A stretch of DNA of 61,620 bases, counting the filler, from Hausera hauseri (Eukaryota), in the NCBI GenBank assembly GCA_046269625.1. It is 11 parts of 11 records of this genome, joined end to end, with 100 filler letters (N's around TTAATTAATTAA, not from the genome) between each part and the next. Parts side by side here need not be neighbours in the genome. Positions count along the whole stretch, not along the records: positions 46,659 to 56,545 come from JBJURY010269952.1; 10 more parts are not named here. One strand, 5' to 3'. The stretch's first letter is position 1; each line of letters starts with the position of its first letter. Under the pieces are notes generated by a model. It made no database searches and was not told the DNA's origin. It saw only the letters and a program-made list of their open reading frames with translations. Below are positions 1 to 55,538 of this stretch, piece by piece. The translations under genes and the position numbers were made by a program.

Positions 1-59
1 GAGGAATGGGTATCGATCCCTCGCACATTTCGAGTTGCCTTCTCAGTCATCATGACTCT

Positions 60-800
60 TGATAGGAAATCCAAATAGCAAATTATGTCGCCGTGCAGGC
101 TGAAGTTCAAGCTCTTGTCAGTGAATATTCCACTGAAGAAGATTCTGTCATTTACACAGTCGGCTCAGTCATTCGTCATCATCGGTGCCCATGGGCATTC
201 ACAGCCCGCGCAAGTGGAAGAACGGTCAAAGAGGCTAGTGGCGCCTTTGCCTGACTACCAGCAGCCTGACTATAGAGGTGATGGCAGTGACGAAAACCCT
301 CCAATGGCTTGAAACACAGAAGCACACTCACGTTTGCATTCTATATGAGTCAATGAACATGCTTAAGAAGGTCTGGCTGGACACGTAGGCAGTGGCTTGA
401 ATCACTGCAGAGGATCACCTTTATATTAGTACCAGGCCATGCCGGTGAGGAGGGTAACGAGACAGCTGACTGATTGGCCAGCTCAGCTGTCATATCAGAC
501 GGTCAACCAATGGATCGCGCTGATGTCATCAACACTCTCAGAGAGTGTGGACGGACTGAAGACCTCAATAATCGTGATACAGCATCGATCACCAGAATGC
601 AAGAACTTGGGGTTAAACACGGCCAAGCCAAAGGCGAGCATCAGACGTGCAAGACGACTTGTTAATCAATACAGAACTGTCATAGTTGACTATCACACGC
701 TGGGGGAAATAGTGATGCGGGGATCTGAGCACCTATGGAATTGTCCGGAGTGCAGGGATGATGTTCCAGCTCGTAACTACCAATGTACAACGGTTGTTTA
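60..800 (+). pseudogene. 3' end of non-LTR retrotransposon ORF2: degenerate RNase H domain plus C-terminal Cys/His remnant
   Basis: Manual translation gives EDSVIYTvGSV (IYTDGS motif, ~135-170), WAFTARASGRTVKEASGAF, and ITFILVPGHAGEEGNETAD*LA (~420-480; LINE RNase H WVPGHxGxxGNExAD motif). EHLWNCPEC follows near 730-755. Contains stops and frameshifts. Confidence 0.75.
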
Positions 801-2778: not shown

Positions 2779-5700
2779 TTAAATGTCGAGTGGCATTGTT
2801 GTGACTTTGTTGGACTGGACCTGTCTTTTAATTTAAAAGTAAGATAATTAATTCCTGTGTTGTGTGTAAGTGTATACTGAGGATTTATGTAGTTTGAACC
2901 CTATGTTTGTCCATCCCTGTGGTTGTTGTGTCTCTAAAACTGATAAAAATGTGTCTTTATCTAAAGTGCTGTGTTGTTTAGAGAAACCTTTTGTACTAGT
3001 TTTGTTGTAATTCCCGAAGCAATGGTAAATTTACTACAAAGTGATATCATTTCTTCGCCCACGTATTTTAATTTAAAGAGTCCCAGAGTTCTCTTATCGA
3101 ATGCTTTTCTTTCTCTACAAGCCTGACAATCTACCCCCGCCTTACCCTCACCACTAATGAATTCGGACCTATGCGTGGGACAGACTTCAGTGGGAAATCA
3201 TTGATTGTAAACGCTAAAAAATTCTTCTCTCATTTGTGGGTGACTACATCGGCTAGGCCATGCATACTAAGAGCCAAATACAAACGATCCGTATCCATCT
3301 CACAAAGTTGAAAGTCCGACCTATCTACAAATTTGTCTATGAAATTATAATAAAATTCTAACATTCTTAACTTCACGTATTGATATACAAAAAAAAAGCC
3401 TATCTGCAAGGGGAGATTCCAAACTGTTTTGTTGTTATGCATGTTTACTTCAAAAAGATCAGGACTAATTTCTGTTATTTTTTAAAACAGGGGACTATTA
3501 ACGGAATCGGTAGTGTCACCACCCTTACAGTAAGACACGTCATGTTTGGTAAGCGTTTTGCCGTAAGAGGCATTCCTGAACTTCATTGTCTTGCTGGTAA
3601 TGGCGTATATATCATATATATTCTAGACGCTCTCACCAAACTTTTTGAAACAAGCTATTGGATGGTATTCAGTGACCATGGTTCATATACAACAGTAATA
3701 ATGAGGTGGCCAGGAGCATCTTTTCGCCTTTGTAACTCCCTACTAGCGTACGATGGGAAATTGTCAAGAGTTTGTTCTCTGTTGCATATTTAGGCATAAA
3801 TGTCGGCTCTAGAGACGTCGACTTTTTTTAATATTGGAGTCATTTCAGAGAAATGTTTCCTTCAATTTTTTCAGGGACGTGTGTCACGCGCCATCTAGCC
3901 AAAGCATTTGTTAGCCTTTATGGTGTCAAGAATTTATTTTTTGGTTGGTGGCCATGTGAATGGATTGTTTTTTACTCGCACCCCAAAAAGCTTAGTGCTC
4001 AAAAAAGCCTTTATTGCTGGATTTGACTTCTTCAGAACTTTCCACTCACATTCCCACATCACCATGACTTCATCATGACTGGCTATTCGCTCGTGAATTT
4101 TCAGTTTTCAAATACAACTTGCCCAATGGTATCTTGCTGATGGGGTTAATGACCTTACTACAGACGATGGGGCAATTCAGATGCCCGTGAAAGAAACACT
4201 CGTGGAATTGATACGCATAACGCAAATTTTTATCCCACCCATCTACTCTATCATGCAAGGAACCTAAAGCAATGTCCCTACCGTTGTAGTGAGTTTTTAA
4301 AGTTATTTTATTTTCGTACTCTACCCATGCTAACCACTCGTGACTCTGTCGTGTATAAGAATTAACTTTATGTGCTTTAAACCCGCCTTTCCTATTCCTA
4401 ACTGTCGCGAAATCGTTCGGCATGTCTTGCATTAAAGTCCATAAATATAGCGCATTAGCATCGTTTACTTTAATCCCCAGAACTAATTTATTACCCCTAA
4501 TTAGTGTCTCACCTGCCTAGTGGTACCTATAGAAAATAATTGACAGCCTGTCTACTATTTTATCCCTAAGGCTTTTATGAAGTTCCTTTTCTCGCTTGGA
4601 ATATAAAGAAAAAGCTACATCTGAGGGAAGTTTTTAAAAGGTGCTCAGCATTACACCGGGGACCAATATCGCGTCGCGAAAAATATCAACTCCTAACTTA
4701 GAATAAAATTCAACCTGTCTTTCTAACTCATATAAAAAGGGTACTACATCCTTATTATACCAAATCAGAAAATTTCGTAGCGTTTTCATGTGGTTTCCAG
4801 CCCAAATTTGCTGATAGTAAGTGTATTCCTCATTGGAGATGTTGGTGTTTTTAAGGGTCGAGAAAAACGCTGAGTGGGGAGGTAGACTAGTTTCACCCAA
4901 TTTAGTTAAATCATCTATGTATTCATAACAAAGATATCCCTTACTTTCCTCTATCTTATATGCGACTAGATACTTGCTGTAACTAAAACCCGGGACTAAA
5001 TAATTACACAAGTCTAGAAATTTCAACTTTTGTGTAAAAATGCACATAAAGTTATTGTTTCTTTAAACTATAAACTTAAAAGGCTTGACGAATGCCCCAG
5101 TAACTCCAGCCCAGTCATTTTGGAGATTTTCTTCTTCTTCCCCATCACTGCCTTGAGCGATGAGTGCACTTATGAAATAGGATTTAATCACATTAATATT
5201 ACATTTTCCCTAGTTAAAACCTATGACTGGGAGCTGGTGCAAATAAAACATTAACCTGACTAGGAGTGTTCTATCTTCTAACTTGCCTAAGTCTTTAAGT
5301 ACGTCCTCTTAACTGCTTAAAAGCCACCTCTGAAATTTTTTCGAGATGGGCGAGTACATCATTAACCAAGGCTTGAGGGTCCTAGTTTGTAAATAAATAT
5401 ACCGTAATTCCAGGCACATTATAGGCTACAGAGCACATTAACGGTGCGTGCTTTGCAACAGAATTTGTTGCACTAGCCAAGGGAAGTAACTCTGTCTCTT
5501 GGAAATTTGTCTCGAAATTGAAGGTTGCACGATATGGATACACAAAGTTAGTGTCAACAGATATCCCGACTAGATCAATTTCTTCCCAAATAATCTCGGG
5601 TGGGTTGTAAACACCACCATTAAAGAAATCGACAGGTTTGCCTCCATTACAAGTCTTGTCATGTCTTGTCAAATTACGGTAGATGGGCCAAAGCTTGTCG

Positions 5701-7646: not shown

Positions 7647-10600
7647 GTTCGTTCGATCATTTTTCATTCTTTCGTTCGTTTCTTCGTTATTTCGTTCTTT
7701 CTTTCGTTCGATCCTTCGTTCTTCCCTTGTTCATTCGTTTTTTCTTTCGTTCGTTCGTTTGTTCCTTCGTTCGTCCGTTCTTTCGTTCATTCGTGAGTTC
7801 GTTCTTTCGCTCATTCGTTCCTTGTTTCATTCCTTCATTCGTTCATTTGTTCGTTCCTTCGTTCTTTTGTTCTTTCGTTCGCTCGTTCCTTCGTTCTTTC
7901 CTTCCTTCTTTCATTCCTTCATTCGTTCATTTGTTCGTTCGTTCGTTCTTTCGTTCTTTTGTTCGTTCGTTCGTTCGTTCTTTCATTCGTTCATTCTTTC
8001 GTTTGTTCGTTCCTTCGTTCTTTCTTTCCTTCGCTCCTTCTTTCGATCGTTCGTTCGGTCGTTCGTTAGTTTATTCTTTCAATCATTGGTTTGTTCTTTC
8101 CTTCGTTCGTTCATTCTTTCATTCGATCTTTCGTTCGTTCCTTCGTTCCTTCCTTCTTTCTTTCGTTCGCTCTTTCGTTCCCTCCTTCGTTTGTTCCTTC
8201 CTTTGTTCGTTCCTTCATTCTTTCCTTCGTCTGTTCGTTCCTTCAATCGTTCTTTCGTTCATTTGTTCCTTCCTTCGTTCTTTCGTTCCTTCGTGAGTTC
8301 CTTCTTTCGTTCGTTCGTTTGTTCGTTCGATCATTTTTCATTCTTTCGTTCGTTTCTTCGTTATTTCGTTCTTTCTTTCGTTCGATCCTTCGTTCTTTCA
8401 TTCCTTCATTCGTTCGTTTGTTCGTTCTTTCCTTCCTCCGTTCTTTTGTTCATTCGTTCGTTCGTCCTTTCGAACGTTCCTGCATTCGTTCGTTCTTTCG
8501 TTCCTTCGTTCGTTTCTTCGTGAATTCATTCCGTCGTTCGTTCGTTTATTCCTGAGTTCATTCTTTCTTTAGTTTGTTCTTTCTTTCTTTCGTTCTTTTG
8601 ATTATTCTTTCGTTCCTTCGTTCATTCGTTCATTCTTTCGTTCGTTCCTTCGTTTCTTCGGTCTTTCGTTCCCTCATTCGTTTGTTCGTTCGTTCTTTCA
8701 TTCGTTCATTTGTTTTTTCGTTTGTTCGTTCTTTCATTCTTTCGTTCCTTCCTTCCTTCGTTCTTTCGCTGTTTCGTTCGTTCTTTCGATCTTTCGGTCA
8801 TTCATTTGTTATCTCAATCATTCGTTCTTTCGTTCGTTCTTTTGTTGATTCATGCGTTCGTTTGTTCGTTCTTTCGTTCGTTCGTTTCTTCGTTCGTTCC
8901 TTCCTTCTTTCGTTCCTTCGTTCTTTCGTTCTCTCATTCGTTCGTTCCTTCGTTCGTTTGTTCGTTCATTTGTTCATTCTTTCGTTCGTTTCTTCGTTAT
9001 TTCGTTCTTTCTTTCGTTTGTTCCTTCGTTCTTTCCTTCGTTCTTTCATTCCTTCATTCGTTCATTTGTTCGTTCTTTCCTTCCTTCGTTCTTTTGTTCA
9101 TTCGTTCGTTCGTCCTTTCGAACGTTCATTCATTCGTTTGTTTGTTCTTGCATTCGTTCTTTCCTTCGTTCTTTTGTTCATTCATTTGTTCTTTCTTTCG
9201 TTCGTTTGTTCGTTCTTTCCTTCGTTCGTTTGTTCATTCGTTCGTTCTTTCTTTCGTACGTTCGTGCGCTCCTTCCTTCGTTCGTTCGTTCCTTCATTCG
9301 TTCGTTCCTTCATTCTTTCATTCCTTCTTTCGTTCATTTGTGCGTTCGTTCCTTCCTTCCTTCATTCGTTCATTCGTTCGTTTTATCGTTCCTGCGTTCT
9401 TTCGTTCCTTCGCTCGTTCTTTTGTTCGTTACTTCATTCGTTCGTTCGTTCTTTCGTCCGTTATTTCGTTCTTTCCTTTCTTCATTTGTTCTTTCGTTCG
9501 TTCGGTTTTTCGTTCCTTCGTTCGTTCTTTCGTTCGTCCCTTCGTGAGTTCGATCCTTCGTTCACTTTTCGTTCATTATTTCTTTCTTTCTTTCCTTCGT
9601 TCCTTCGTTCGTTCGTTCATTTGTTCGTTCGTTCGTTCCTTCGTTCGTTTCTTGATGAATTTGTTCGTTCGTTCTTTCGTTCTTTCCTTCCTTCGTTTTT
9701 TCGCTGTTTCGTTCGTTCTTTCCATCTTTCGGTCGTTCATTTTTTTTCTCGATCATTCGATCTTTCCTTCGTTCGTTCGTTGATTCATTCGTTCTTTTGT
9801 TCCTTCATTCGTTCGTTCATTTATTCCTTCATTTGTTCGTTTTTTCGTTACTTCGATCTTTCGTTCCTTCGTTCGTTCCTTTGTTCGTTCCTTCGTTCGA
9901 TCGTTCGTTTGTTCGTTCCTTCAACATTCCTTCGTTCGTTGCTTCGTTCCTTCGTTCTTTCGTTCGTTCGTTCTTTCTTTCGTACGTTCGTGCGGTCCTC
10001 CCTTCGTTCGTTCTTTCGTTCTTTCCTTCGTTATTTCTTTCTTTCCTTCGATCGTTCTTTCTTTCTATCGTTCCCTTGTTCGTTATTTCTTCCGTTCTTT
10101 CGTTCTTCCATTCGATCTTTCGTTCGTTTGTTCGTTCGTTCCTTCCTTCATTCGTTCGTTCTTTCATTCGTTCATTAGTTCCTTGTTCTTTCGTTCGTTC
10201 TTTCTTTCGTTCGCTCGATCGATCGTCCTTTCTTTCGTTCCCTTGTTCGTTCCTTCCTTCGATCGTTCCTTCCTTCGTTCGTTCGTTCTTTCTATCCTCC
10301 CCTCGTTCGTTCCTTCCTTCGTTCGTTCGTTCTTTCGTTCTTTCTTTCGTTCTTTCGTTCGTTCATTTTTTCGTTCGTTCTTTCCTTCGTTCGTTCATTC
10401 ATTTGTTCGTTCTTTCCTTCTTTCGTTCGTTCGTTCGTTTGTTCTTTCGTCCTTTCGTTCGTTCTTTCGTTCGTTCATTCTTTCATTCGTTCTTTCCTTC
10501 TTTCTTTCTTTCATTTGTTCGTTCTTTCCTTCTTTCGTTCGTTCGTTCGTTCTTTCTTTCTTTCTTTCGTTCATTCTTTCGTTCGTTCGTTCTTTCCTTC

Positions 10601-11010
10601 GTTCGTTCTTTCGTTCTATCTTTCCTTCCTTCGTTCGCTCGTTCTTTTGTGAGTTCTTTCTTTCTTTCATTCGTTCCTTCAGTCGTTCTGTCGTTCTTTC
10701 ATTCGTTCGTTTGTTCGTTCGTTCCTTCTTTCCTTCGTTCTTTCGTTCCTTCCTTCCTTCCTTCGTTCTTTCGTTCGTTCGTTCGTTCCTTCTTTCTTTC
10801 TTTTTTTCGTTCCTTCCTTCGTTCGTCCGTTCGTTCTTTCGTTTTTTCGTTCGTTCGTTTGTTCCTTCATTCGTTCGTTCATTCGTTCTTTTGTTCTTTC
10901 GTTCTTTCTTTCTTTCATTCGTTCGTTCCTTCGTTCGTTCGTTCGTTCGTTCGCTCGTTCTTTCGTTCGTTCATTCGTTTGTTCGTTCATTTGTTCGTTC
11001 GTTTTTTCGT
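7647..11010 (+). repeat. Degenerate (TTCG/TTCC/TTCT/TTCA)n tetranucleotide satellite
   Basis: About 3.4 kb of TTCN units. All long F/S/R/V-rich ORFs here are artefacts of the repeat. Confidence 0.97.
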
Positions 11011-12253
11011 TATGTTGCATTTTTCATGCCGATCCATTCGTCTTATCGTAAGGCGTCCATAATATAAAATGCTCAACTACTGATTGGCTACGTGGTCATC
11101 CTATTTCCACGGCCAGAAGACCCGAACAATGGGAAATTTTTACTGTTTGAAATTTTCCCATCAATTTTTCCCATGTTCCCATGGTCAAACCGAGTTAAAG
11201 TTGTGTGCATTCGATTCTCAATCATCGGTTTGACATTTGCACCAAACATTGAGCAATTCGTAACTCGTGCCTCGTTTCTCATAAAACATTTCTTGTTTTG
11301 CTTCTTTTGCTTCTAGCGCCGCCCAGTAACATTTTCGACTCTCGCTGCGCTACAAAATTTTTCTGCGCTCATCGAGTTCTACCAATTTCCGTCGGTAACA
11401 TGTGTGGCATGTGACATGTGCTTCCGGCTCGGGGGGGTCTACGACCAAAAAACATGATATGCTCAGAATTGCAAGATAGTTTGGACAAACGTGGTCCCAC
11501 GTCGATCTGAGTACTTTTGGGAAAGTGGGATGGAGCGCTCACTTCTACCTACTTGATGATTTTGACTTTAACACTGCGTTTTTTCGATGATGACGATTTT
11601 GACTTTGTAGCAATGCGTTTTATTGCATTTTTCACCCCGATCGATTGGCCTGATCGTGAGGTGGCTATACTATTAAATTTTTCTCTCCTCATGGGCAATG
11701 TATTAGACCAATTTCCATCTCAGGAAGACTTGAACATGGGGAAATTTTATCACTTTAAAAATTTCCCATGGATTTTTCCCCATGTTCCCATGGTCTGACC
11801 GACTTGCAACATTGTCCATTGCAATCGCCAATATCGATTTTTCTTTTGTACACATTTTCCCAGTGCTAGCAACATGTTTCACGTTACACGTGGACCATTT
11901 CCTGTTTTGATTCTTCCTCTTCTAGTGCCTCTCCATTACATTTTTAGCATACCGCACCTATATTATCTTTTGCTCACCACGCCACGGGCTATCGATATAA
12001 CCTGGTCCAAAGTCCATTGTTCCACATCCTTTTCNNNNNNNNNNNNNNNNNNNNNNNNNNNNNNNNNNNNNNNNNNNNTTAATTAATTAANNNNNNNNNN
12101 NNNNNNNNNNNNNNNNNNNNNNNNNNNNNNNNNNATAATTACTTAATAGAAAATTTGTAAGAAAAAGTCAGTATAAACATAGAGTCAAAATTATGCCACA
12201 ACTAACAAACTATAATATTTAATCAACCAGGTTTTTGTCAATTTACCCATTGG

Positions 12254-38770: not shown

Positions 38771-41632
38771 TCATAAAAACCTATGGGGTGTCTGTCTCAG
38801 TTGTGCACTAATGCGCACTGTCGATTGGCACATGTGCAAAATAGATTTATCGACTAACTTTCCGTTGGCTGTTTATTGAAATAACTTCGAATTAAATCTA
38901 AACATTAATGCCTGTTTCAATTCATCCTCACATCCATAAAATTATGAATAGTTAAAATGCCAAATTCCCCAGCACCACATTACATAAATTTTTATTAATC
39001 TAAATTATTTACTTATACATATAATCAAAGTATTGATTGTGAAAATGAAAAATTCAAACATGAAATAATTCTCAGAATTCAATTTGACAATAAAAAACGA
39101 ACCTAAAATAAACCCATGGGTAAACATCATTTCACCAACAAACAACGACATCGAATATGAACACAAATTAATGCTAGTCGAATGTAAATGAAACAAAAAA
39201 ATCTACTGAGCTGGAAAACATCTGCTCATGAGTACATTTGCAGTCGTACTGTTCTTTTGTTTTTAGAGAAAAAAAATTAAAATAAAAAAATATAATAAAC
39301 AGTGCCGTACCTGTCAATTCCCAGCCGAGCATTACGGACGACCGAGAGTCGAGAGTGAGAAGGAAAAGCAATGTCTCTACAATACGATTTTTGTAAAGCA
39401 TTAGGAAATGTTTTTTCACTTTATTATTTGTACTACAGCAATGACTAATCACTACATCGATTCAGATTAATGCTAACTTGTAATGAGTTATAGAAATGAG
39501 TTTGTAATTTCACGATGATGGCTTCTTTGATGACATAGCGCGTTTGGAATAATTGACTTCAATAATTGTGATACTGTTTGTTGTACAAAATATTAATGGA
39601 ATTATGAATAGGCAGTCGATAATTATTACTGTTTTAAATATTTAGTAATTTACTACTGATAAATTTTTCAGTAGTGATTTCAATTATTAATTATGGTTCT
39701 TTATACAATGTATGAAATTGGTTTAAAAATAACGTATCCAAGGAGTTCTTTTAAGTTTTGCTCCATATTCGGATAATAAAAATGTAGTTTGCAGTAGTGA
39801 TGATAAAAAGACTGATGTTAGAATCATATTCAAAATTTACAATCACCTGATAATTTAATCACATTTACTGAACTGGTCAATCACTGAGTACTGACCAGTC
39901 CAGAGTCACCGTTGTCGTTGCGTCTGAACAAATTTCTTTCCTTGGTGTCGGCATTTTTAATCAATTAGATATTTAATTAACATTTGCTGTATTAATTTGG
40001 CATTTGAATGAAAAAGAACTTGACGATCGAACGATTTCGAATGCACCTGACAATCCGGGGGCTAGTCGTACGGGAAATGTCAATTGTAAAAGTAGTAAAT
40101 TGTTGACAACAGTAAAATGGGATGTAATTTTCTTAATTGTGGTCATGTCCATGTCGGGTAAACCAATTACCGGGCCGTATTAGACGACAGGACAGAGAAA
40201 AATTTTGATTGAAAATTCTGTTCGTTTGTTGAGGTTGCTACTTCAGTTTTTATGATAATATTATATACAAAATGCATAACTACAAAGTGGTGTTCCCGGG
40301 GTTTGGATTTAAAATGAAATACGAAACTTGTGGTCCATTGATTGTCTGAAAATTGGGCCATAGTCCACTTCATATTCCCACATTTTATTATTGATTAATA
40401 ATTTGGGCACCCGCATTACAGTGTATCGAAAAATTAAAAAGCAAAATCTGTCTTGAAATATATTCAACTGTTGTTTTGGTTGAATTGTACTTTGGATTTC
40501 GCTGTGAGAACAAATTACAATATGGAGAATTTGCGAATATCAGGAACGTCATCCATGAGTCACTTCTGGTGTTCTATCAATTGTCCAGTAAGTAGGTTAC
40601 AATTTTGCAGGCAGTTCATTTACTGGACTTATGAGTAATAACCTCGGGTATTAAGTTGCAATTATCCATACTGGAGGAATAAGATACGAAAAAATTCATG
40701 GCAAGGTTGGTATTTTGAGGAGGGGCACACCGAAGGTCTCCTGGTAACCAGACTTCTGAAACCTGATGATTTACCATATTTCCGCTATACACCTATTTGT
40801 TCTGTTGCAACTGAAACCAATGGCGAATGGGCAAACTTGGGTTCTTTTTGAATCTCTAATCTGTGATACCTTTTTTTCTACTTTCTTTATGGTTATGTTC
40901 AATACATTCCCTCTTACTAGTCCAGATGCCATCTCCAGTTTATCATATATTTTTGATTGATCAAATCTATCTTCAAATTGTCAGTATTCGTTTCGTACGA
41001 TCCAGTATCGACAAACTTCGACAATTTCATTTCGTTAAACTGTTGCAAACTCGGATCCGGACACAATTCGTTGCTGTTTTGAAGAATATCCTCGACAATT
41101 AGCTGATCGATAAAGTGATAAATCTGCGGTCGTAACGGATAATCTCGGAGTACTTTTCACAATCCGTTTTAGCGACACTTCGATACAGAACTCGAAATAA
41201 ATCTTCCGAATTTAGGTAATAGCTCGGGTAATGGCTTGGTTCTTTTCGTTTAGTTCTTCTTTTACCATTGTGCAATCGTTCAGAAATGTGTTGATGTGTT
41301 CGTGAGTTTCAACGTATCAATTGTCACGCAGAAATCCATTGTAAATCCCCAATAAACCGTTAACATTCACCGTTAAATTCACGACGTAGATAAAGTCTAT
41401 ATTCATACTCCGATGGTTTTATCTCTCCTATACAAAAATGCGGATGAATCATAACGCTTATAAACAGNNNNNNNNNNNNNNNNNNNNNNNNNNNNNNNNN
41501 NNNNNNNNNNNTTAATTAATTAANNNNNNNNNNNNNNNNNNNNNNNNNNNNNNNNNNNNNNNNNNNNTGTTTTGTTTCAAAACGATGATCTGTCTTAGGC
41601 TTAACCTTTATTTTTATTTCAGCAGAGTAAGT

Positions 41633-44819: not shown

Positions 44820-46558
44820 CAATCTTCTTGGATAAGGTCGCCCTTTGAACACCTTTAGCCAGCCACAAATCTCGAGATGGTTGCCTCATTCACCTCGTCT
44901 TTGAATTTCCCAAGGACCTTTTTGTTGGCGATTTAATAGTTCGGATGCTCCTTCGGATAGTCAAACGTATCCATATGCTGTGTCAACTTAGCAAAGTCTG
45001 CATAAATGTCTTCCATATGGATCTGATAGATGAAACTATCAGTATCCATGTACACGAGCTGTATGGACTTCAATGTGGGGATCATGATGTCGTAGTGGAA
45101 TTTGTACATCAAGGTCTTTGACAGGTCCGATATTGCCATACCCACATATATGGGCTAGTTGAATTGCAAGGATGTTTTCAGCATATAGACGCTGACCAAG
45201 TTCGCCGCATATATGATGCTGATGTGGAAGTAGAACTTGGGAATGAGCTTCTTTGCCCGCTTCCAATCAGATACCAGTTCGATGTTGATCCTGTTGCGGA
45301 TATTCTCCATGGTCTTGCCCAAAACGCTGTTGTTGTAATGCTTAAATTGGTCTTTTTCAAAGTCGTTCTTGGCATTGGTTCGCAGCTTGGTATTGAGGCC
45401 TATATATGGCTGCAGCCAGTTGGACTGGCTGAACTGTATGGCCCGATGGATCTTCGTAATGCGGAATCCATTGCTGACCGCCTGCTGGAGATTTATGTAG
45501 TGGACTACATACATCTCCCTACTATCCAAATGGCAGAGCAGCTTTGTATGTTTTCCATAGGACGGAGGCTTGCTTTCAGGAAGGAAAGGCAGCTGCTCAT
45601 GCCTTGTGTGGATAGAAGTCGTATATTCTATATTCACCTCCAGTACATATCCCTTATCTCCACTGGGATCTAGGTCCAGTATAGAGATGTTTTCAGGATA
45701 CTCGACCCATTTGAAGTTATCGTACGGCAATGCGGCGCTCATTGACCGTCCATACAAGTTGTTGGCATCCAGGCATGACATATATGAGGATTCCTTGGAT
45801 GGACCATACTGGGCCATATATTTTTTGTTGGTCTCGCTATACTGGTGAATGGCCTGGAATATTCCGCCTCTAATGCTCTCTCGGTCATGAGGATCTTGTC
45901 GTTATCCTTTATGATCTGCAGCCTGACACCTGTACATTTCAGCATAGCTGCCAAACTTATTCCTGGAGCCGTAAAGAAATGAGCTTGATCCAATGCATGC
46001 CCCATTATCGTAGCATCCATGAAACTCTCAAAGGCATCCGTCAGCAGCAGCACATCCGTCTTGAGGTATATGTAGCTGTATTCTTCTAATGTTCGGCATT
46101 GGAATGCATTCCAGACATTTTCAGCATGCTGGTAGTCCATATCACCGATATCGTAATCAAAGAGGATATTGTAAAAGTCCTTCTTGGCCGGCAATGAGGT
46201 CTTATCCAGTGTTTCCCATAAAGTTATATAGTCATAAGAAAACACGCCTTTCCTTTTAATCAGGTCAAAGGTAGTGGGGAAGAACCGCTTTGTCTCCTTG
46301 AGTTATTCTGCAGGGAGGTTCTTTACTAAACTGTCCAGTGACGATGACATAAAACAAAAATTGTCTATGAAGCAAAGTCTGATTTTTCCAACATGCTTGG
46401 CAAAGGTGATATATTTTTCCACACTGTTTGGGATCACATCTATATTGCCACAATGTTGCCTAATTTTCGGACTATGAAATGGGAATCATAGCCACTGAGA
46501 TTATGGAACTCTACAGGCACATATGTATATGTTTTGCAGCAGTTGTAGCATTGTGCCC
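44820..46558 (-). pseudogene. polB: Second Polinton-type pPolB (different lineage), truncated at its C-terminus by the LTR insertion
   Basis: ExoII VPVEFHNLSGYDSHFIV; KGVFSYDY; ExoII/III region YLKTDVLLLTDAFESF; motif A LDANNLYG; motif B KHYNNSVLGKTMEN; motif C YMDTDSFIY; then GKFKDE and AKGVQRATLSKKI up to the LTR junction. Confidence 0.92.
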
Positions 46559-46658: not shown

Positions 46659-47857
46659 ATAGAATTTCTTGACTTATGTACAATTGAGTCGCCTGGTGGC
46701 GCATGTTTTTACCATGTGGACAAACCTACAGTGCAACAAACCTTCGCCTTACTTGATCAAGATTCAATGAAAATAATCGACAGATGGGAAACACCCCTTT
46801 TGCGAACCCCTTCGTTTCGAATTTTTAGAGAACCATTTTTGGCTTATCAATATTTATGGATTGAAGGACAGTCTGGAGTTTTAGTGCAAATTAAAGAAAT
46901 TAGATTAAATTTTACTAGACGGACTATTGCTCCAAAATTATCCCTCGATTTACCACGTTTTCCAATATATTATAATAAACCGACATGGGTCAGAATTACC
47001 ATTCCAATATCCGAGACAAGCATATATTTCATACACGATTGGTTGATTCCCCCTGTTCAACCTTTATTTACATCAGGATCATTTTTGTGAAAAGCAATCC
47101 CCTATTCTTCTATTGATGTTTTGCGAACACGGTGGAACCCTGCAGTACTAGAAGCTACATATTTAAGGAAACATTGGTTGGTGTCCGTGGGACCTTCTCC
47201 ATCTCGGCTTGTAATAATAAAGAAAGAAGATATCCATTTTCGACCCTCTGTATGCCGGATCCCGTTTGCAATGTTGATAAACCCATCACGTCGACTCATA
47301 ATTAATACTACACTAAATTTAAAACATTTATTCTCATCTAATTCATCTCCATATATAAAACCAAGAGTCGCTATGTTAGACTCACGAATAGTTCCTTCGA
47401 AAATGGACCTCCTAACTACAACAGTTAACTTTATATCAAACCAATCCTTATCTGAATTGGCGGCGCATGAACACAATACAACACACTTTGAAATTTCCAA
47501 ACCGTTGGAAAAACCCATATTATTTGAAACAAATTTTTCAGATTGGAAGCAAAAATTTGCCTTTTATTTTTTTCACGTATACCGGCCTCAACAACTGGTG
47601 CATTAGTGAAACCTAAACAAAACTCATTACCTTTCTTCTATATATGGGTAGTTGTAATTATCATATCGGGCATATTAATTATAGTATGCTTTTTCCTCGC
47701 CGTGTATTTTAAAAAATCTAACGAAACGTTTTATGCGCAATATATTAATGAATATGAAAACATACCACCGTATGATATTAATCTTAATCTAAACTATTTC
47801 GCGCCCGACGAGATTGCCGGCAGACGGAATGATGATGTTTACAGCAGTATTTTATAA
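46659..47857 (+). pseudogene. env: C-terminal part of env-like type I membrane glycoprotein of a Gypsy element
   Basis: Multiple N-x-S/T sequons, TM IWVVVIIISGILIIVCFFLAVYF followed by KK, and a Tyr-rich tail. Lies upstream of the accessory ORF remnant and LTR. One stop and one frameshift. Confidence 0.6.
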
Positions 47858-48144
47858 CAATTAAGATTTGCCACGACCTATTATTTTCAGGTGCGGGCAT
47901 ATATTTCTAATACCCACCTTTATTTTTTAGTGGCATCTACAAATCCCAATAGATGCTTATAGTCATCAAATGGCCACCGTACCGCTGAACAACTTCCACC
48001 ATCAAGCGTCAGAAGCGAAGCAACCCAATCAGATGCCAAATACTGATGATTTATATACATGGACAGACTCAATTACGTTAGACTCTCCGTGATCATTGAT
48101 TCCGTTTGACGTTAGTGGGAAACGTCGGCTTAGACCCCCCCTTA

Positions 48145-49088
48145 TGTTGACGATTGTGGTGTAATTTCTACACCTGTTTAATTATGTTTTACATTAATTA
48201 TCTTAGCAGCATAATAGCTGCAATGGTTAATCTTTATTCATATTGTTTAGCAGCATAATAGCTGCACTAATTAATTTTTTTGTTGTTGTCTTTTGTGTTA
48301 GATGTATATATATATATACATACCCCTGTGTACAAAAAAATAAAAATAATGATGTTGTATAGTTGCCTTGCTTTTGGTTATTTCGTAAAATTTTCCGCGA
48401 TATTACTGCAATAAAGTATCTGCGTATTCTACGATAGAAGAGAAGGAAGAGTTATTTACTAGGCCTCGATATCAAACTATCAGTGGGTATATTTGTTAAC
48501 TTCTTTTATTTAATCTTAATTGTTACATTTTTTTGGTGCTGTTTAAAATTATCAATTGGCCCTAAACTTGGTTGTTTGTTAAATTCGTTTGTTTGTATCG
48601 AATAACGCGTGGACTATTCGGCGAATTGCCACGGTTATTCGATCGTCTGTGAAACAATTTTTGTTGGATAGATTGATAAAATCGTTTGTCTGACTTTGAT
48701 AATTGGGCCTAATTAAGTATTTTTGTTCCGTCGGTCGGCATAAAAGACTTGTGTGCGGGGCGTTTCCTTTGACAACAAAACAAGGGAATAAACTAAGTAT
48801 TGGAAAACAGATAATTATCCTCCTTTTTGGTTACGAAAATCTGGTCATCGGAGTGCTCCGCTTTTACAAGATCCGTTAAAACGTAGTTGTAGAGTTTTCG
48901 TTTTACCAGTTAATTGTCCTTAAGCTAACCTTATTCGGTGAGACTTGTGACTAACAGAGATTAATTAGAAATTACAAGCTTGTCTTCCTTTCTTTTAATA
49001 AGGATAAAAAGAGGAGGCTGAAATAATAATACTAAATTGATTTTATACCCGAATAAGAGAAAGTTTAATAAATAAGTTAATACCAACA
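48145..49088 (+). mobile_element. LTR shared by two tandem elements
   Basis: TGTTG...CAACA ends. TATA-rich stretch at ~48305-48320 and AATAAA at ~48410. Followed by a PBS. Homologous to 54496-55538. Confidence 0.88.
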
Positions 49089-49096
49089 TAAAAATT

Positions 49097-49114
49097 TGGC
49101 GACCACACCAGGAC
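49097..49114 (+). promoter_or_regulatory. Primer binding site, probably tRNA-Arg(TCG)
   Basis: TGGCGACCACACCAGGAC lies 8 nt after the LTR end. Its complement ends GTCCTGGTGTGGTCGCCA, like a tRNA-Arg(TCG) 3' end. Confidence 0.7.
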
Positions 49115-49269
49115 CCGATTTTCGAATTTAAAATTTTCTTGGTCTGGCTAATAAGTTGAAGAGGTCATTCGACGAAAAGGTAGTCGTAAGTGAAAATATT
49201 ATAAGAAAGGTTACTGAACATAGTGCTATCACCCCTACAGAAGAGTTTAAACATTCGCAAGTACAGAGA

Positions 49270-52200
49270 ATGTCCACTTTTGCAAACCTAAATTTAGGAC
49301 GTTACTCCGGGGAAACTACGGAATTTGATGATTTTATGTTAGTATACGCGGCACAAGCAGACGGGTTAGAGTGGAATGATAAAGAGAAAATTAAGCGTTT
49401 GGTTGCACATTTGGAAGGAATTGCTTTACAAGCTTACTTGCAAATTGAGGAAAAGGAGAAAATGAGTTGGGATAAATTTATCGATGTACTTAGAAGAAAC
49501 TTGGATCCCGATCCATCTTCAAATGCAAAACTAAGAAGTCTACGATCTAGAGTACAATTACCTGGAGAATCTGTTAATAAATTTGCATTTGCCCTTCAAC
49601 TACTTGGTAAGCGATATAAGGAAGCCTTGGAGAAGGAAGACATTGTTAAAGATGATAAAAGTGCACCTAAGGTATTTGCAATGGAACCTATCCTAATAGA
49701 TTGTTTTATCACTGGACTTAATAGTCCTAAGTTACAGAGACAATTGATCGAAAGTGACGTCTCTACCCTGAGTGAGCTAATAAGAAAGGCAATAAATTTT
49801 GAAAATGTAGAAAACAAATTAAATCAAATTAATCAAAATTCAATCAATAACAATCAAATTTCAAGTAATAACTTTAGACCCCAAAATCAAAATCAAAATC
49901 TTAGACGGTCTATTCAGGCTTGGCGAACTCCATCATGGTCATATTGACAGGCCGGCTGGCAAGTTCCTTCGATACCGCGTTGGAGTCCGCCTCGTTGGAA
50001 TGTTGGTAATAACCCGAACGTTGATCAAAATTTATTTCCCAATATTGACCCGAATACTGTAAAATCACCTATAAGAACAAATCTGCAATCGCAAAGAATG
50101 AGCACTCCTATTAAAGACATGGCCGCCGGAGCAAATTTGAATAGAAAACAATGGATTAACCCTCCAGAACAGCAAAAACGATATCCTCTCCGATCACAAA
50201 CTACACAGCAACAAGCAATGGCGTTAGAAAGGGACAAAGTCAATTACAGAGGATTAATTCAGTGCAACCAATGTAAAAAATTTGGACATATTGCTAAGTC
50301 TTGCCCAGAAATTAAAAGAACACCGGTATTAATGTCACCTTATATTCAACAACCTAAGCAGTGCAATATCTGTGCACAATGGGGACATGTAGCTCGAAAC
50401 TGTCCAACCCAGGTAAGTATGATGAATGAAAATAGATTTTGTTATCATTGTAATCAAATCGGACATGTTTGGAAAGAATGCCCACTGTTAGAGAGCCACA
50501 ATAATTTGACCCTTATGCAGGATGATCCAAATTGTCTTGGAGTACAGTTCGATAATTTAGAAGACTATGAAAATTATGGAAATTGGTGGAATCAAGAATT
50601 TGATAATTCAGATTATTATGGGAATTATCAAAACTTGTGGAATCAAGGAGTATGTTACGATACTATACAATATGACCAGGATTTTGTTGAAACACAGATG
50701 GGAAATTCAGATAATTATGAAAGTTATGAAAATTTGTGGAATCAAGAAATAGATAATCCAGAGAATTATGGTAATTATCAAGAATCATGGAACCAAGGAG
50801 TAAATTACGATAATAGTGATGGGAATTGTCAGAATATGAATAATGTAGATATAGAATTTGAATTGAAACGATTGAGGGCTGAAACGGACGAAATGCGTAC
50901 TCAATTGGATAGATTGAAAATATTATATGGAAACCAAGTTGTTTTATTTGGAACTAAAAAGGAGACATTGGAGGATGGACGTAATACTGATAGTGACTGT
51001 GGACAGATGAAGTGTCCAAAAAAAGTAAAAATAATTGGACCGATGATACACGATGTGGGGTGTAAAGAAGATGAAATAACTCAGGATGACAATGATGCTG
51101 GAGTAGTTAAACGCTATGATATTAAAGGAAAATTTGTAGATAGTAATGATGACGGACCGCAAAGAGTTAATTATAGAAAGTGGTACTGTCAAGATAAAGA
51201 TGAATTAAATAATGGATCGAGTTCTATTGAAATAGATGTATGCGAAGTATGGAAAACAAACGATGTTGAAATTTCATTAGAAAATGAAGCTGTAGGTTTA
51301 AATGAAAATTGTTTGAGTATACTGACTCTTGATCCTAGTGATGATAGTGATAAAGACATGATTATTGAAACTGATTTTGATAACATAATATTGAGTAATG
51401 GAAATAATGACGGAAATGTTTCATCAAATGTAGAGGTTAATGAGAATTTAGATATTGTAAGTGATGGAAACTTTGATTTTAATAGGTGTTATAAGTTAAA
51501 TGAAACTATAGATCGTAAGGATTTATTGGAAGAATCATATGAGGAAATTGTTGATACTTTAGGTGTAGTTCGAAAATTTGAAAATTTGAAAAGTGAAATT
51601 CAGAAAATAGTTAATGATATTATTGACATTAATAGTTTTGATAAGGTAAGTTGGATAGATGATTCAGAAATAAAATTACATGACAGAATAAAGGAAGTAA
51701 ATATTGATCTTGGGAAAACTTTGGAAGAAAATATCGTTAATGTAGATTGTAATAAAGTAACTATGTTTGAAAACCAGTTTTCGATGATTAAACGCGATGA
51801 TGGAGTGGAGTTTGAGAAGTTTTGGAATAAAGCGGACATGAACTTGCGAAAAAGATTGATAAAGTTGAAATGTCCGGATGTATTTCAGAAAGATGATATA
51901 AACTTACAACGTTATGAAGATTTTATGGATAAGATGTCAGTTAAAAGGACAGAAATTCAGGTGGATTTGAAAAATTTCTTAAACCAGGTTCAAGAGAAAG
52001 GCTGTTTTGGTCTGGATAAAAATGCAGTAGAAAAGGACATTGAATTAGAAACACGTTGTAATCCCCGATGGTTTAGTGATTATTTTCGAAGATGCAAATA
52101 TAAATTTTACTCTATTGAGATAATTAAAAACATATATGAATTTCAAAAAATGCTTATGATTAAAGAACCTGACGTAATAAAGGTTAAGCAAATTCGGTAC

Positions 52201-52725
52201 TGTGAAAAGTCTTATAGAGTTTGTAACATAGAAATCCAATGTATAAGGCATGTGTTTAAAGTTGGCGAATGGGTTATAAAATTGGAGTTGAATTGGTTGA
52301 TAGTCCTGTTAATAAAGGTGAAAGAACCAGAGGAGGTATTGGAAAAGTTGGTATATTGGATGCTCTTGAATGGTCGGTTTCAAGCCGAACGAAATAAAAA
52401 GAACGACAGACGAGATGAGGCTGGAAAAATGATGACATTGATGAAATATGAGTTAAAAGTTTGGATTATGAGAAAACGATCAAGAAAACCCTCTTTTGCT
52501 CTCTTTCACATATGTGTGGTCGAAATTATCATTTCGGGCATAGTAATTATAGTATGCTTTTTCCTCGCCGTGTATTTTAAAAAATCTAACGAAACGTTTT
52601 ATGCGCAATATCTTAATGAATATGAAAACATACCACCGTATGATATTAATCTTAATCTAAACTACTTCGCACCCGACGAGATTGCCGGCAGACGGAATAA
52701 CGATGCCTACAGCAGTATTTTATGA
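49270..52725 (+). CDS. gag: Gag (capsid + 3 CCHC knuckles) extended by a long acidic region and fused in frame to the env TM/cytoplasmic tail; one TGA at 49945-49947
   Basis: YSGE..FDDF..WNDKEKI..HLEGIA, RVQLPGESVNKF and FITGL capsid motifs; knuckles CNQCKKFGHIAKSC, CNICAQWGHVARNC and CYHCNQIGHVWKEC. ORFs 49156 and 50098 share a frame. The last ~70 aa are nearly identical to the env tail at 47640-47857. Confidence 0.85.
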
Positions 52726-52806
52726 CAATTAAGATTTGCCACGACCTATTATTTTCAGGTGCGGGCATATATTTCTAATACCCACTTTTATTTTTTAGTG
52801 GCATCT

Positions 52807-54450
52807 ATGAATCCAAATAGTCAATCAGTATCCTCGACAGAATCCACTATAACCCCCAATGATGTGCAGTATCTACAACAATCACTAGACAAATATTCCA
52901 CTATCCGTGTAGAAACAGATTCAGCATCTATTGAACGTTCCCTGAATGATATTCACCCACCTCTATATCTTCTCCCACTTACCTCTCAACCTTATTCACA
53001 ATCACAACATTTCTTAACTTATTCACCTCCAATTCGAAATATTGCCCAAAGTCTGCAATTTGCAAGTTTAGAAAATATGCCTCGCTTACCTATTCACCTA
53101 CCTACAAAGGTACCCATTCCCTTTCTCTACGAAGTACTACGTTCACGTGCTGTATATAGATCGTTACGTATGGATAGAACGCTCCGTTACAGCACTATTA
53201 AATATCCTTCTACATTTACAATCCCAAATAAGTATAAAGGTAACAGTCTGCATGATCGGTGTATTGTAATTTCTTATTGGTCCCATAGTTATGGGCCTAC
53301 ATCCTTAAGGCAAGCCGTTGAGCAACTACTCTCTATCACGAATTTCCCATTGCAACCTCGTAATTTATTGTTAACTGTTGCTCAAGGTTCTATTGTACTT
53401 GAAGTTTCTAAACCACCGTTTCCTAAATTTAAACTTTATGCATCGTCTCAAAGGTCACTTTTATTGACGGAAAATATTTGGGACTCAGAATTATTGACCA
53501 TCTTAACAAGGGAAGCATCTATTCTATATCTTGAACTTGAATATGTAGATACCCCATTCTGGTATCAACATTTTTACGCCTCATCTAATGGAAAACTATC
53601 CTTTAAAGAATTAGATTGGCTTCCACAACCTCCGCCTCAAGCATTACACTCTTATATCCGTACTCCTAATCCTTATTCAATTAGCGACTTACTTTTTATA
53701 GGCTACACTATAGCCTTTTCAGGAACATTGCCGTTACTTATCCAAATATATTTAGCTGACCTTACCAATGATCCTAATGAACCATTGACAATAAGATACA
53801 AATCCTATATAAGACCCCGAGAGAAAATAGATAATATTGATAAGCATTGTCATGGTATCTCGTTGGATGATTTGGAGGGTTCACCGGATTTTGCATTATG
53901 CAGGGCCCATATTCAGCGTGCCATAATTGGCAGAGTAATAGTAACTTTCGATCCACAGTATCTTCTTAACCTTTTGCACCTACCCCCTACCCTATTATTA
54001 GGCCAATTAGATCTCAATATTAGCCATCATGGCTTCAAATCCTTCCTGTCCATATTTCGGTCTACCGAATATTATATTGCAGGCAAAATGAACGCTGAAT
54101 ACATGGTGTACATCGCCCATGACATCTATAAAGAAAGGAGACATTTTAATTCGCTCTCACCCCCTTGGCGCCCCAAATTATTACCTAACGTCATATCAAA
54201 ATGCCCAAATAAATTACCATCACAAATTCCCCATTGTTCTTGGTCAGACCTTTCCTTTTTAGAATATCCATCACTAGACCTTCCCTCTCATACATCACGT
54301 ATCCCAATAGATGCTGATAGCCCTCAAATGGCCACCTTACCGCTGAACCAGTACCACCGTCAAGCTTCAGAGATAAAGCAATCCAATCAAGCCCCAGTCA
54401 TTGATGATTTACATACATGGACAGATTCTATTATTCTAGACTCTCCATGA
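52807..54450 (+). CDS. Intact accessory ORF with degenerate DEDDh/DnaQ-like exonuclease fold, no RING
   Basis: 547 codons open from ATG 52807. YKSYIRPREKIDNIDKHCHGISLDDLEGSPDFALCRAHIQRAIIGRVIVTFD resembles the DnaQ/REX4 core. Confidence 0.75.
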   Translation: MNPNSQSVSSTESTITPNDVQYLQQSLDKYSTIRVETDSASIERSLNDIHPPLYLLPLTSQPYSQSQHFLTYSPPIRNIAQSLQFASLENMPRLPIHLPTKVPIPFLYEVLRSRAVYRSLRMDRTLRYSTIKYPSTFTIPNKYKGNSLHDRCIVISYWSHSYGPTSLRQAVEQLLSITNFPLQPRNLLLTVAQGSIVLEVSKPPFPKFKLYASSQRSLLLTENIWDSELLTILTREASILYLELEYVDTPFWYQHFYASSNGKLSFKELDWLPQPPPQALHSYIRTPNPYSISDLLFIGYTIAFSGTLPLLIQIYLADLTNDPNEPLTIRYKSYIRPREKIDNIDKHCHGISLDDLEGSPDFALCRAHIQRAIIGRVIVTFDPQYLLNLLHLPPTLLLGQLDLNISHHGFKSFLSIFRSTEYYIAGKMNAEYMVYIAHDIYKERRHFNSLSPPWRPKLLPNVISKCPNKLPSQIPHCSWSDLSFLEYPSLDLPSHTSRIPIDADSPQMATLPLNQYHRQASEIKQSNQAPVIDDLHTWTDSIILDSP

Positions 54451-54495
54451 TTTTTTTGTTGCGTAGTGGACAACGCTATCTTAGGCCCCCCCTTA

Positions 54496-55538
54496 TGTTG
54501 AAGACAGTAATTCAATTAATTAACTGTGAGGGAAGCAAGTTTTTTTGATTTGACTCACATTGATTGTTGTGAGATTGCTTTTGCCCTCGTTGAGTCTATG
54601 TGAAGCGCTTATGTAAAGTTGGTATTGTGACTGCAGCTGTTGCAATTATCCTTGTAAGGAATTCTATCACATTGTCTGCAGCATAATAGCTGCAATGATG
54701 AAGTCTAATTTTTTTCGTGTGCATGATATATATAAAAATGTATTGTAAACTAAAAAATAAAATATAGAAGTGTTATATGCGATTTTGACTTATTTATTTT
54801 CACGATCGTTGGCGCAATCTTTTCTACGATTTTACTGCAATAACATTGGTATTCGAATAGAAAAGGGAAAGAGGAGGACCATTGACTAGTTTGACGTGAA
54901 CCTAGTGGGTATAGTTTTTGGTTCTTTTATTTAAACTTGATTGTCATAAGATTTTCTTTTGTTGTTTTTTATTTATTGTTATTTAAAAGCACTTTTGGCC
55001 CCTAAATTCATCTGTTTGACAAAACTGTATGGTTGTACTAAATAACACGTGGACGATTCAGTGAATTGCCACGGTTGTTTGGTTGTCTGTAAAATATTTT
55101 TTGGAGAAATTGATAAAAGTATTGCTTGATTTTAATAACTGGGCCTAATTAGGTATCTCGTTCCGTCAGTCGGCACCAAAGCCTTGCGCTACGGGCGTCT
55201 CATTTGATAACAAAAGACAAAAATAAATTGAGTGTTGGGATACAAGTAATTATCTTTTGGTTATAGCAACCTGGTCATCCGAGTGCTCCACCTTTACAAT
55301 ATTTGTTAAACGTAACTGGGGAGTTCTCGTTTTGCTAGTCTAGTTGCTTTTAAGCTAATTTTTTTGGCGAAGCTTGTGACTTACGTAGATTAACTAGGAA
55401 TTACAAACTTGCTGTTTATACTGCTAATATAGATACAACTGAGAAATTTATTGGGTAAAAAGGGGCTGAAATAATAATATTAAATTGATTCTAAACTTAA
55501 AAAAAAGAGAAGGTTCAAAGAGTAAGCCAGAACCAACA
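54496..55538 (+). mobile_element. 3' LTR of the pol-less element
   Basis: TGTTG...CAACA ends and collinear similarity to 48145-49088 (e.g. GCAGCATAATAGCTGCA, GAATTGCCACGGTT, GGGCCTAATT, GCTGAAATAATAAT). Confidence 0.88.

What the first reader, a model, noticed from the sequence alone, without database searches (positions are those of the whole stretch)
52807..54450. Intact, RING-less distant homologue of the accessory pseudonuclease
An uninterrupted ~550-codon ORF occupies the same slot (after the env tail, before the LTR) in a different family. It has IRPREKIDNIDKHCHGISLDDLEGSPDF..IQRAIIGRVIVTFD (DnaQ-like HGI motif) with no ExoI DxE (LFIGYT) and no ExoIII H/D (MNAEYMVYIAHDIY). Upstream LELEYVDTP and KELDWLPQP echo LEFRIAELP and PSLLYIQKP of contig 9. 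It is one of very few long, non-repeat ORFs here free of stops and frameshifts, which suggests current function. It also implies the pseudonuclease plus its N-domain is the core module and the RING is optional.
Basis: partly seen in the sequence, partly recalled or inferred. Interest (0 to 1): 0.72.

Follow-up and report, generated by a model that had tools for sequence, protein, structure and literature searches.

The report
Retrotransposon pseudonuclease behind a leaky stop
A family of giant virus-like jumping genes in an animal genome carries an extra gene predicted to be a catalytically dead RNA-trimming nuclease, placed in frame right behind a stop codon with a plant-virus-type read-through signal, so ribosomes likely slip past the stop and hang the dead nuclease on the inner tail of a membrane protein.

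Summary
The 547-codon ORF and all quoted motifs are real. It is the 3' accessory gene of a multicopy giant Ty3/gypsy element (gag-fusogen-pol-second membrane protein in one frame). Its C-terminal half is predicted to fold like ISG20 (Z 12.1) and lacks the ExoI and ExoII acids; it is a distant homologue of the RING-bearing contig 3/9 proteins (hhalign E 7.7e-4, 257 columns); dN/dS is about 0.1-0.2. The scan noted this pseudonuclease before on other pieces of this genome. The frame opens 81 bases earlier, directly after the membrane protein's stop, in the context TGA-CAA-TTA (tobamovirus CAR-YYA read-through motif) followed by a hairpin. TGA+CARYYA stands in 38 of 47 relatives, in 22 of 30 copies of the very distant RING clade, and a motif-only search found two more lineages. 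A splice acceptor 70-98 bases downstream is conserved too, so a spliced soluble form is a serious rival or partner. No RNA data were available. The upstream 'env tail' is not the fusogen. Intactness reflects selection on the element and a young copy, not a host function: this copy lacks pol.

The parts
48145..49088 (+). LTR 1 (TGTTG...CAACA), shared between the preceding copy and this one
   Evidence: 74% identical to LTR 2 over 908 aligned bases
49097..49115 (+). primer-binding-site-like sequence (TGGCGACC...)
   Evidence: same motif after the LTR in 5 related contigs; tRNA not identified
49270..49947 (+). gag N-terminal part (Retrotrans_gag / Ty3_capsid), ends at an in-frame stop
49948..52490 (+). 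rest of gag (3 CCHC knuckles) and long linker; fusogen, PR, RT, RH, IN and the ectodomain found in relatives are absent here
52491..52722 (+). transmembrane segment (about 52510-52566) and cytoplasmic tail ending YSSIL of the post-integrase membrane protein
52723..52731 (+). TGA CAA TTA: stop codon in CAR-YYA read-through context
52737..52767 (+). predicted 3' hairpin, 10 pairs, starting 12 bases after the stop
   Evidence: not recovered by RNAalifold
52774..52798 (+). branch-point-like CTAAT, T-rich tract and AG (52797-52798): splice-acceptor-like site
52726..54450 (+). accessory frame, 574 codons from the stop; first ATG 52807 (not conserved)
53056..53505 (+). conserved N-domain of unknown fold
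   Evidence: no hit
53686..54162 (+). ISG20-like DEDDh pseudo-exonuclease domain (residues 294-452)
54418..54447 (+). conserved C-terminal motif WTDxIxLDSP after a variable tail
54496..55538 (+). LTR 2
46659..48093 (+). 3' end of the preceding tandem copy: ectodomain, TM, TAA CAATTA (47855), accessory ORF lost by a 1.5-kb deletion

Best explanation
The ORF is the 3' accessory gene of a giant Ty3/gypsy element, encodes a domain predicted to be an ISG20-like but catalytically dead exonuclease, and is likely made by read-through of a UGA-CAA-UUA stop, which would attach it to the cytoplasmic tail of the membrane protein encoded behind integrase, where it likely binds RNA rather than cuts it. Shown: reading frame, copy family, selection, conserved stop context, absence of ExoI/ExoII acids. 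Inferred: read-through itself (about 0.7), membrane topology from hydrophobicity, RNA binding (about 0.4). Most ribosomes would stop and give a membrane protein ending in Y-x-x-I-L; a minority would add N-domain, pseudonuclease and tail (plus a RING in the sister clade). The likely use is to hold element RNA or host RNA-silencing factors at the membrane where particles form. A spliced, soluble form from the conserved acceptor probably exists beside it.
For: TGA+CARYYA in 38 of 47 distinct family-A junctions and 22 of 30 B/C junctions, where CAATTA (15) alternates with CAACTA (7) as the motif allows; background 13 of 3140 stops in the window. The two clades are about 3.2 changes per site apart and 15-20% identical. 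A motif-only search (238 hits vs 164 control) led to lineages D and E with TM/tyrosine tail upstream and a homologue downstream (E 4e-23, 1.5e-15; 3 of 12 picked hits; 6 were known families, 3 background). The frame after the stop has a stop in 8 of 47 copies, the other frames in 47 and 34. Synonymous divergence drops to 0.315 in codons 1-24 against 0.63-0.72 elsewhere. First Met ranges from codon 28 to 75; the first ATG after the acceptor is out of frame in 7 of 12 long open copies. Hairpins: 87% and 95% of cells paired, 0 of 500 shuffles as high. CAR YYA, UGA read-through in that context and 3' stem-loops are described in PMC2754532 and PMC3159437 (passages). Fold: ISG20 top in 4 searches that partly share input.
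Against: No RNA, ribosome or protein data. An AG acceptor is present in 47 of 47 A and 27 of 30 B/C junctions, and in B the first ATG after it is in frame in 21 of 22 copies, so splicing alone could serve B/C. Lineage E keeps TGA in 12 of 12 but strict CARYYA in only 5 of 12 (CAACGA in 4). RNAalifold gave no consensus structure and the single hairpin folds only at z -1.5; the pair counts reflect few events in related copies, and pairs-with-double-change was not above shuffles in B/C (202 of 500). dN/dS of codons 1-24 is 0.54, so protein-level constraint there is not shown. 8 of 47 copies have a stop in these codons, several through slips in the T tract. The model is middling (pLDDT 57) and no Foldseek hit reached E 0.001.
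Confidence: 0.58

Rival explanations
1. The accessory protein is made only from a spliced subgenomic mRNA that joins a 5' leader donor to the acceptor at 52798, as a soluble protein; TGA-CAATTA and the hairpin are conserved for another reason (splicing control, packaging, DNA-binding site).
For: Acceptor AG in 47 of 47 and 27 of 30 junctions, branch-like YTRAY in 25 of 47 and TRAY in 28 of 30, conservation ends right after the AG; fixed in-frame ATG 22 or 10 bases after the AG in B and C; GT(A/G)AG donor-like site in the leader in 5 of 6 copies.
Against: First ATG out of frame in 7 of 12 long open A copies; AG phase differs between lineages (1 in most A, 2 in one A subfamily and B/C) yet the frame from the stop stays open; exact CARYYA variation TTA/CTA; no spliced retrocopy among 113 loci.
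Confidence: 0.25
2. The domain is an active or partly active nuclease with a rearranged site (D382, E431, H438, D439), trimming element RNA or DNA as proposed for rotifer DEDDy ORF3.
For: D382 39 of 49, E431 36 of 39, H438 30 of 35, D439 33 of 35 conserved in family A; nuclease domain has the lowest dN/dS, 0.09.
Against: No acid on the ExoI strand (G299 48 of 50, Y300, A/T301); ExoII position is F/L; none of these four residues is kept in B/C.
Confidence: 0.1
3. This copy has been domesticated by the host and is kept intact for a host function.
For: 574 open codons although the flanking LTRs are only 74% identical and pol is missing.
Against: Six other full-length open copies at 53-58% identity; the deleted, pol-less neighbour frame of 925 codons is equally open, 1 stop in about 1770 codons, which fits a young copy; LTR mismatch fits a mosaic tandem array.
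Confidence: 0.07

Closest known systems
GAG-ENV-POL errantiviruses with gB-type Env (Chary and Hayashi, PMC13524379: abstract, outline, passages, supplement term search) and planarian Burro/GYPSM1 (PMC6431247, section 7 read)
   Same: Ty3/gypsy, gag with 3 CCHC, fusogen (PF24664, E 3e-72) in frame between gag and protease, one giant polyprotein.
   Different: Here a second membrane protein follows integrase, then a leaky-context stop and a pseudonuclease. 'readthrough' and 'exonuclease' have 0 occurrences in that paper's main text, and 'exonuclease' and three peptide motifs 0 in its 7 supplements (cells over 400 characters are cut). No BIR, MATH or BCL2 domain was found in the stretches scanned.
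DEDDy ORF3 of bdelloid Juno and Vesta LTR retrotransposons (PMC5408684, passages)
   Same: DnaQ-like exonuclease gene in the 3' slot of an LTR element.
   Different: Those are RNase D-like DEDDy with intact catalytic residues, replace env and lack TM domains; this one is ISG20/DEDDh-like, lacks the acids and coexists with a fusogen.
SIRE1 of soybean (via PMC2829016, passage; original paper not held)
   Same: An ORF separated from pol by a single stop and expressed by stop-codon suppression.
   Different: Plant Ty1/copia; the extension is the env-like protein itself; here an animal Ty3/gypsy, UGA, and the extension is cytoplasmic.
Type I read-through of tobamo-, beny- and pomoviruses (PMC3159437, PMC2754532, passages)
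   Same: CAA-UYA after the stop; a local stem-loop as predicted for benyviruses; C-terminal extension of a structural protein.
   Different: Usually UAG, plant RNA viruses; read-through here is untested.
ISG20 / ISG20L2 / SDN1 DEDDh exonucleases; dead DEDD proteins Maelstrom and EXD1 (as described in PMC5408684)
   Same: Predicted fold (Z 12.1, rmsd 3.8, 136 residues); conserved RP..I......GI segment.
   Different: 13% identity; D11 and D94 positions (PMC7756014, passage) fall on G299 and L386.

Membership tests
DEDDh / DnaQ-like exonuclease fold (ISG20 group) | RNase H-like DnaQ fold | tested here: met
   VIA Z 12.1 to 1wlj, next rows also DnaQ-like; Foldseek top ISG20 E 1.9e-3; Atlas 0.92 to RNase_T clusters, 161 shared features; model pLDDT 57
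Active DEDDh exonuclease | ExoI D-x-E on strand 1 | tested here: not met
   no conserved D/E in residues 295-309 of family A; register inferred from range 69..227 vs 6..178; E13 numbering recalled
Active DEDDh exonuclease | ExoII Asp (ISG20 D94) | tested here: not met
   Y385 aligns to residue 93, so D94 falls on L386 (F in 45 of 48)
Active DEDDh exonuclease | ExoIII H-x4-D | tested here: inconclusive
   no residue-level alignment returned; E431, H438, D439 conserved in A but not B/C
Active DEDDh exonuclease | 3'-5' nuclease activity | not testable with these tools
   bench assay
Ty3/gypsy GAG-ENV-POL errantivirus | LTRs, gag, fusogen before PR-RT-RH-IN with IN last | tested here: met
   in relatives L166, L033, L032; the window copy itself lacks fusogen and pol
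Ty3/gypsy GAG-ENV-POL errantivirus | placement on an RT tree | not tested
   no reference RT set on hand
Type I (CAR-YYA) programmed read-through | stop followed by CAR-YYA, conserved, in frame with a long ORF | tested here: met
   38 of 47, 22 of 30, 5 of 5, 5 of 12 in lineages A, B/C, D, E
Type I (CAR-YYA) programmed read-through | 3' stimulatory structure | tested here: inconclusive
   for; weak or none
Type I (CAR-YYA) programmed read-through | measured read-through product | not testable with these tools
   needs reporter, ribosome profiling or mass spectrometry
Rotifer DEDDy ORF3 | RNase D-like DEDDy with intact acids | tested here: not met
   best matches are DEDDh ISG20-type, RRP6/WRN at Z 7.5; acids absent
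Contig 3/9 pseudonuclease-RING family | profile similarity over N-domain and nuclease domain | tested here: met
   hhalign E 7.7e-4, 257 colinear columns, 19% identity, probability 25%; direct hmmsearch on the broken window contigs only E 0.04
Contig 3/9 pseudonuclease-RING family | C-terminal C3HC4 RING | tested here: not met
   0 of 12 A loci, 0 of 10 D/E loci (several cut short), 6 of 12 B/C loci

The most novel reading that the evidence does not exclude
An ancient clade of animal envelope-carrying retrotransposons encodes, besides its fusogen, a receptor-like second membrane protein whose cytoplasmic module (N-domain, dead ISG20-like nuclease, optional RING ligase) is switched on by plant-virus-type UGA read-through, with a splice acceptor giving a soluble twin; the module is swapped between element backbones as a fast-diverging counter-defence cassette against host RNA silencing.
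Probability: 0.35. Interest if true: 0.8.

Novelty: new variant of a known kind. Interest (0 to 1): 0.63.

Why it matters
Known retroelement read-through sites join gag to pol, or pol to env in SIRE1. A conserved CAR-YYA site that extends a post-integrase membrane protein with a pseudo-enzyme, kept across lineages under 20% identical, would be a new use of recoding in animal retrotransposons and can be tested with a 100-base reporter. It also changes the annotation: the gene starts at the stop, not at an ATG, and the upstream protein is a second, unnamed membrane protein rather than Env. Dead DEDD folds are host piRNA-pathway parts (Maelstrom, EXD1), so an element-borne one is a candidate silencing antagonist.

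Tried and rejected
Pfam: no family for the ORF or three intact relatives at E 1; a B relative hits RNase_T at E 0.0016. Three protein-database searches (single protein, alignments A5 and A3, near lengths only) found nothing; the representative search gave one hit, P0003, E 1.3e-4, which by eye belongs to lineage E; metagenome contigs none. No RNA holder listed; the two runs laid were contigs of unknown kind and say nothing on splicing or expression. No spliced retrocopy among 113 loci or by one tight pattern. RNAalifold: no consensus structure. The careful tree did not finish; the quick tree of 47 rows was used, fragments under 200 residues left out except four D/E rows. Literature: 10 searches; none listed a paper on this read-through site, but one search was badly phrased and most subscription papers are not held. 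PMC5009743 and PMC3985635 (passages) added nothing. Rejected: ATG 52807 as the family's start; 'env tail' as fusogen; homeodomain-site reading of CAATTA (broken by CAACTA in 7 of 30; motif recalled).

Full report
Observation. The window is 11 joined contigs; the finding lies on the 10th, which is G000:C269952 of an 869-Mb eukaryotic assembly. The open frame starts earlier, at 52726, directly after the TGA that ends the upstream 925-codon frame.

The element. The contig reads: 3' end of one copy, LTR 1 (48145-49088), primer site, gag with an in-frame stop at 49945, three CCHC knuckles and a long linker joined to a transmembrane segment and tail, the accessory ORF, LTR 2 (54496-55538). Relatives show what is missing here: one frame carrying gag, linker, a Monjiviricetes-type fusion glycoprotein (E 3e-72), protease region, RT and RNase H (L166, 3061 open codons), and integrase followed in frame by a second membrane protein (L033, L032). 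This is the GAG-ENV-POL layout of Burro and of gB-type errantiviruses of flatworms, nematodes and bryozoans. So the 'env tail' is the tail of a second, unnamed membrane protein, and the window copy is an internally deleted derivative.

Copies and selection. A search with the nuclease region gave 150 scored matches of 1407 candidates. Of the 30 best loci, 7 (the window included) are open from the stop to the same C-terminal LDSP, 574-627 codons, 53-58% identical to the window protein. Pooled over 10 copies dN/dS is 0.15 in the N-domain, 0.09 in the nuclease domain and 0.17 overall; synonymous sites are near saturation, but the closest pair (dN 0.048, dS 0.296) gives 0.16 too. The window copy has 1 stop in about 1770 codons of gag, linker and ORF, so a young insertion of a selected element gene explains intactness without a host role.

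Fold. Pfam gave nothing. The only PDB sequence hit was ISG20, E 1.4; a 77-sequence profile gave ISG20L2 0.037, ISG20 0.059, SDN1 0.43. The domain model (mean pLDDT 57, 96 of 245 residues over 70) matched ISG20 first by Foldseek (E 1.9e-3, no hit under 0.001) and by VIA (Z 12.1, rmsd 3.8, 136 residues, followed by other DnaQ-like nucleases). The Atlas gave 0.92 to RNase_T clusters with 161 shared features, a lead rather than proof. ISG20 D11, D94, D154 are catalytic. The ExoI strand has no conserved acid (G299, Y300, A/T301), D94 falls on L386 (F in 45 of 48); ExoIII was not aligned residue by residue and conserved E431, H438, D439 remain in family A only. The N-domain stays unassigned.

Relation to contigs 3 and 9. 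B and C end in a RING; A, D and E show none. The quick tree separates B+C from A+D+E by about 3.2 changes per site; without a root, gain or loss of RING is open.

The stop junction. The ATG at 52807 is private: other open copies have their first Met at codon 35-75, while QL(K/R)xAxxYxF right after the stop is shared. Among 47 distinct A junctions from 80 loci, 44 have TGA and 38 have TGA+CARYYA; among 30 B/C junctions from 50 loci (5 ran off the contig, the rest lacked this part), 27 have TGA and 22 TGA+CARYYA, 15 CAATTA and 7 CAACTA. In the window 13 of 3140 plus-strand stops have such a hexamer. CAR YYA is the tobamovirus read-through signal, works with UGA, and 3' stem-loops often assist. 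The frame after the stop carries a stop in 8 of 47 A copies against 47 and 34 in the other frames, and in 10 of 30 B/C copies against 14 and 28. Synonymous divergence halves in codons 1-24. A hairpin 12 bases after the stop pairs in 87% of cells with double changes at 6 of 10 pairs; B/C have a different hairpin, 95% paired, with two A-U/G-C swaps between B and C. Against: RNAalifold found no consensus and the single fold has z -1.5. A motif-only genome search (238 vs 164 control) and 12 hand-picked hits revealed lineages D and E with a tyrosine-motif tail upstream and a homologue downstream; D has TGACAATTA in 5 of 5 junctions (2 by construction), E has TGA in 12 of 12 but CARYYA in 5, CAACGA in 4.

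The rival signal. A branch-like motif, T tract and AG lie 70-73 bases (A) or 95-98 bases (B/C) after the stop in 47 of 47 and 27 of 30 junctions, and conservation ends at the AG. In B the next ATG is in frame in 21 of 22 copies, in C in 5 of 8, in long open A copies in only 5 of 12. No spliced retrocopy was found and no RNA run was listed. Both signals look selected; the simplest reading is two products, a membrane-bound read-through form and a soluble spliced form.

Mechanism and novelty. Shown: frame, family, selection, stop context, missing ExoI/ExoII acids. Inferred: read-through, topology, RNA binding, counter-defence. Precedents are rotifer DEDDy ORF3 (active site intact), SIRE1 env read-through and dead host DEDD proteins. 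Ten paper searches listed no report of this arrangement, nor did term searches of the errantivirus survey and its supplements. The scan had already noted the dead nuclease and its RING form on other pieces of this genome; the lines shown do not mention read-through, and a word search for it returned nothing. Verdict: new variant of a known kind, interest 0.63.

Noticed in passing
window 46659-55538; L031, L032, L033, L040, L045: Accessory ORF, one LTR, then gag of the next copy: head-to-tail arrays sharing single LTRs in 5 fetched contigs and the window.
   Followed up: partly
L032 vs L033: Integrase 97% identical (dS 0.48), ectodomain 80%, accessory ORF 57% (dS saturated): the 3' module has a deeper history than pol and seems to be exchanged between backbones.
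   Followed up: partly
window 46659-47620; L033:3923-6853; L092:36-989: Second membrane protein behind integrase, about 350-residue ectodomain with 7 N-glycosylation motifs, no Pfam family in A; weak fibronectin-III-like hit (E 0.0097) in B. Tails end Y-x-x-I-L/T in all five lineages.
   Followed up: partly
L084, L127 and other B/C junctions; window near 41625: GTAAGT, a perfect splice donor, 4 bases after the acceptor in 23 of 30 B/C copies: possible micro-exon or recursive splice site.
   Followed up: no
window 47855-47960: The preceding copy has TAA in place of TGA and has lost 1.5 kb of the ORF between short microhomologies.
   Followed up: partly
L071, L041, L091, L093: Copies with a sense codon at the stop position, giving a direct in-frame join; single decayed copies, significance unknown.
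   Followed up: no
window 48135-48144 and 54486-54495: A C-rich run (CCCCCCCTTA), not a purine tract, directly precedes both LTRs.
   Followed up: no
window 7647-12034: Contig 2 is a TTCG/TTCT-type simple repeat; its long frames are artefacts of the repeat.
   Followed up: no
window 4076-5062 and 45158-46302, minus strand: Fragments that look by eye like type-B DNA polymerase of Polinton-type elements (label recalled, not searched).
   Followed up: no
L039:2220-3695: A 492-codon intronless frame resembling by eye a TRAF-family protein lies just downstream of a family-A copy (label recalled).
   Followed up: no
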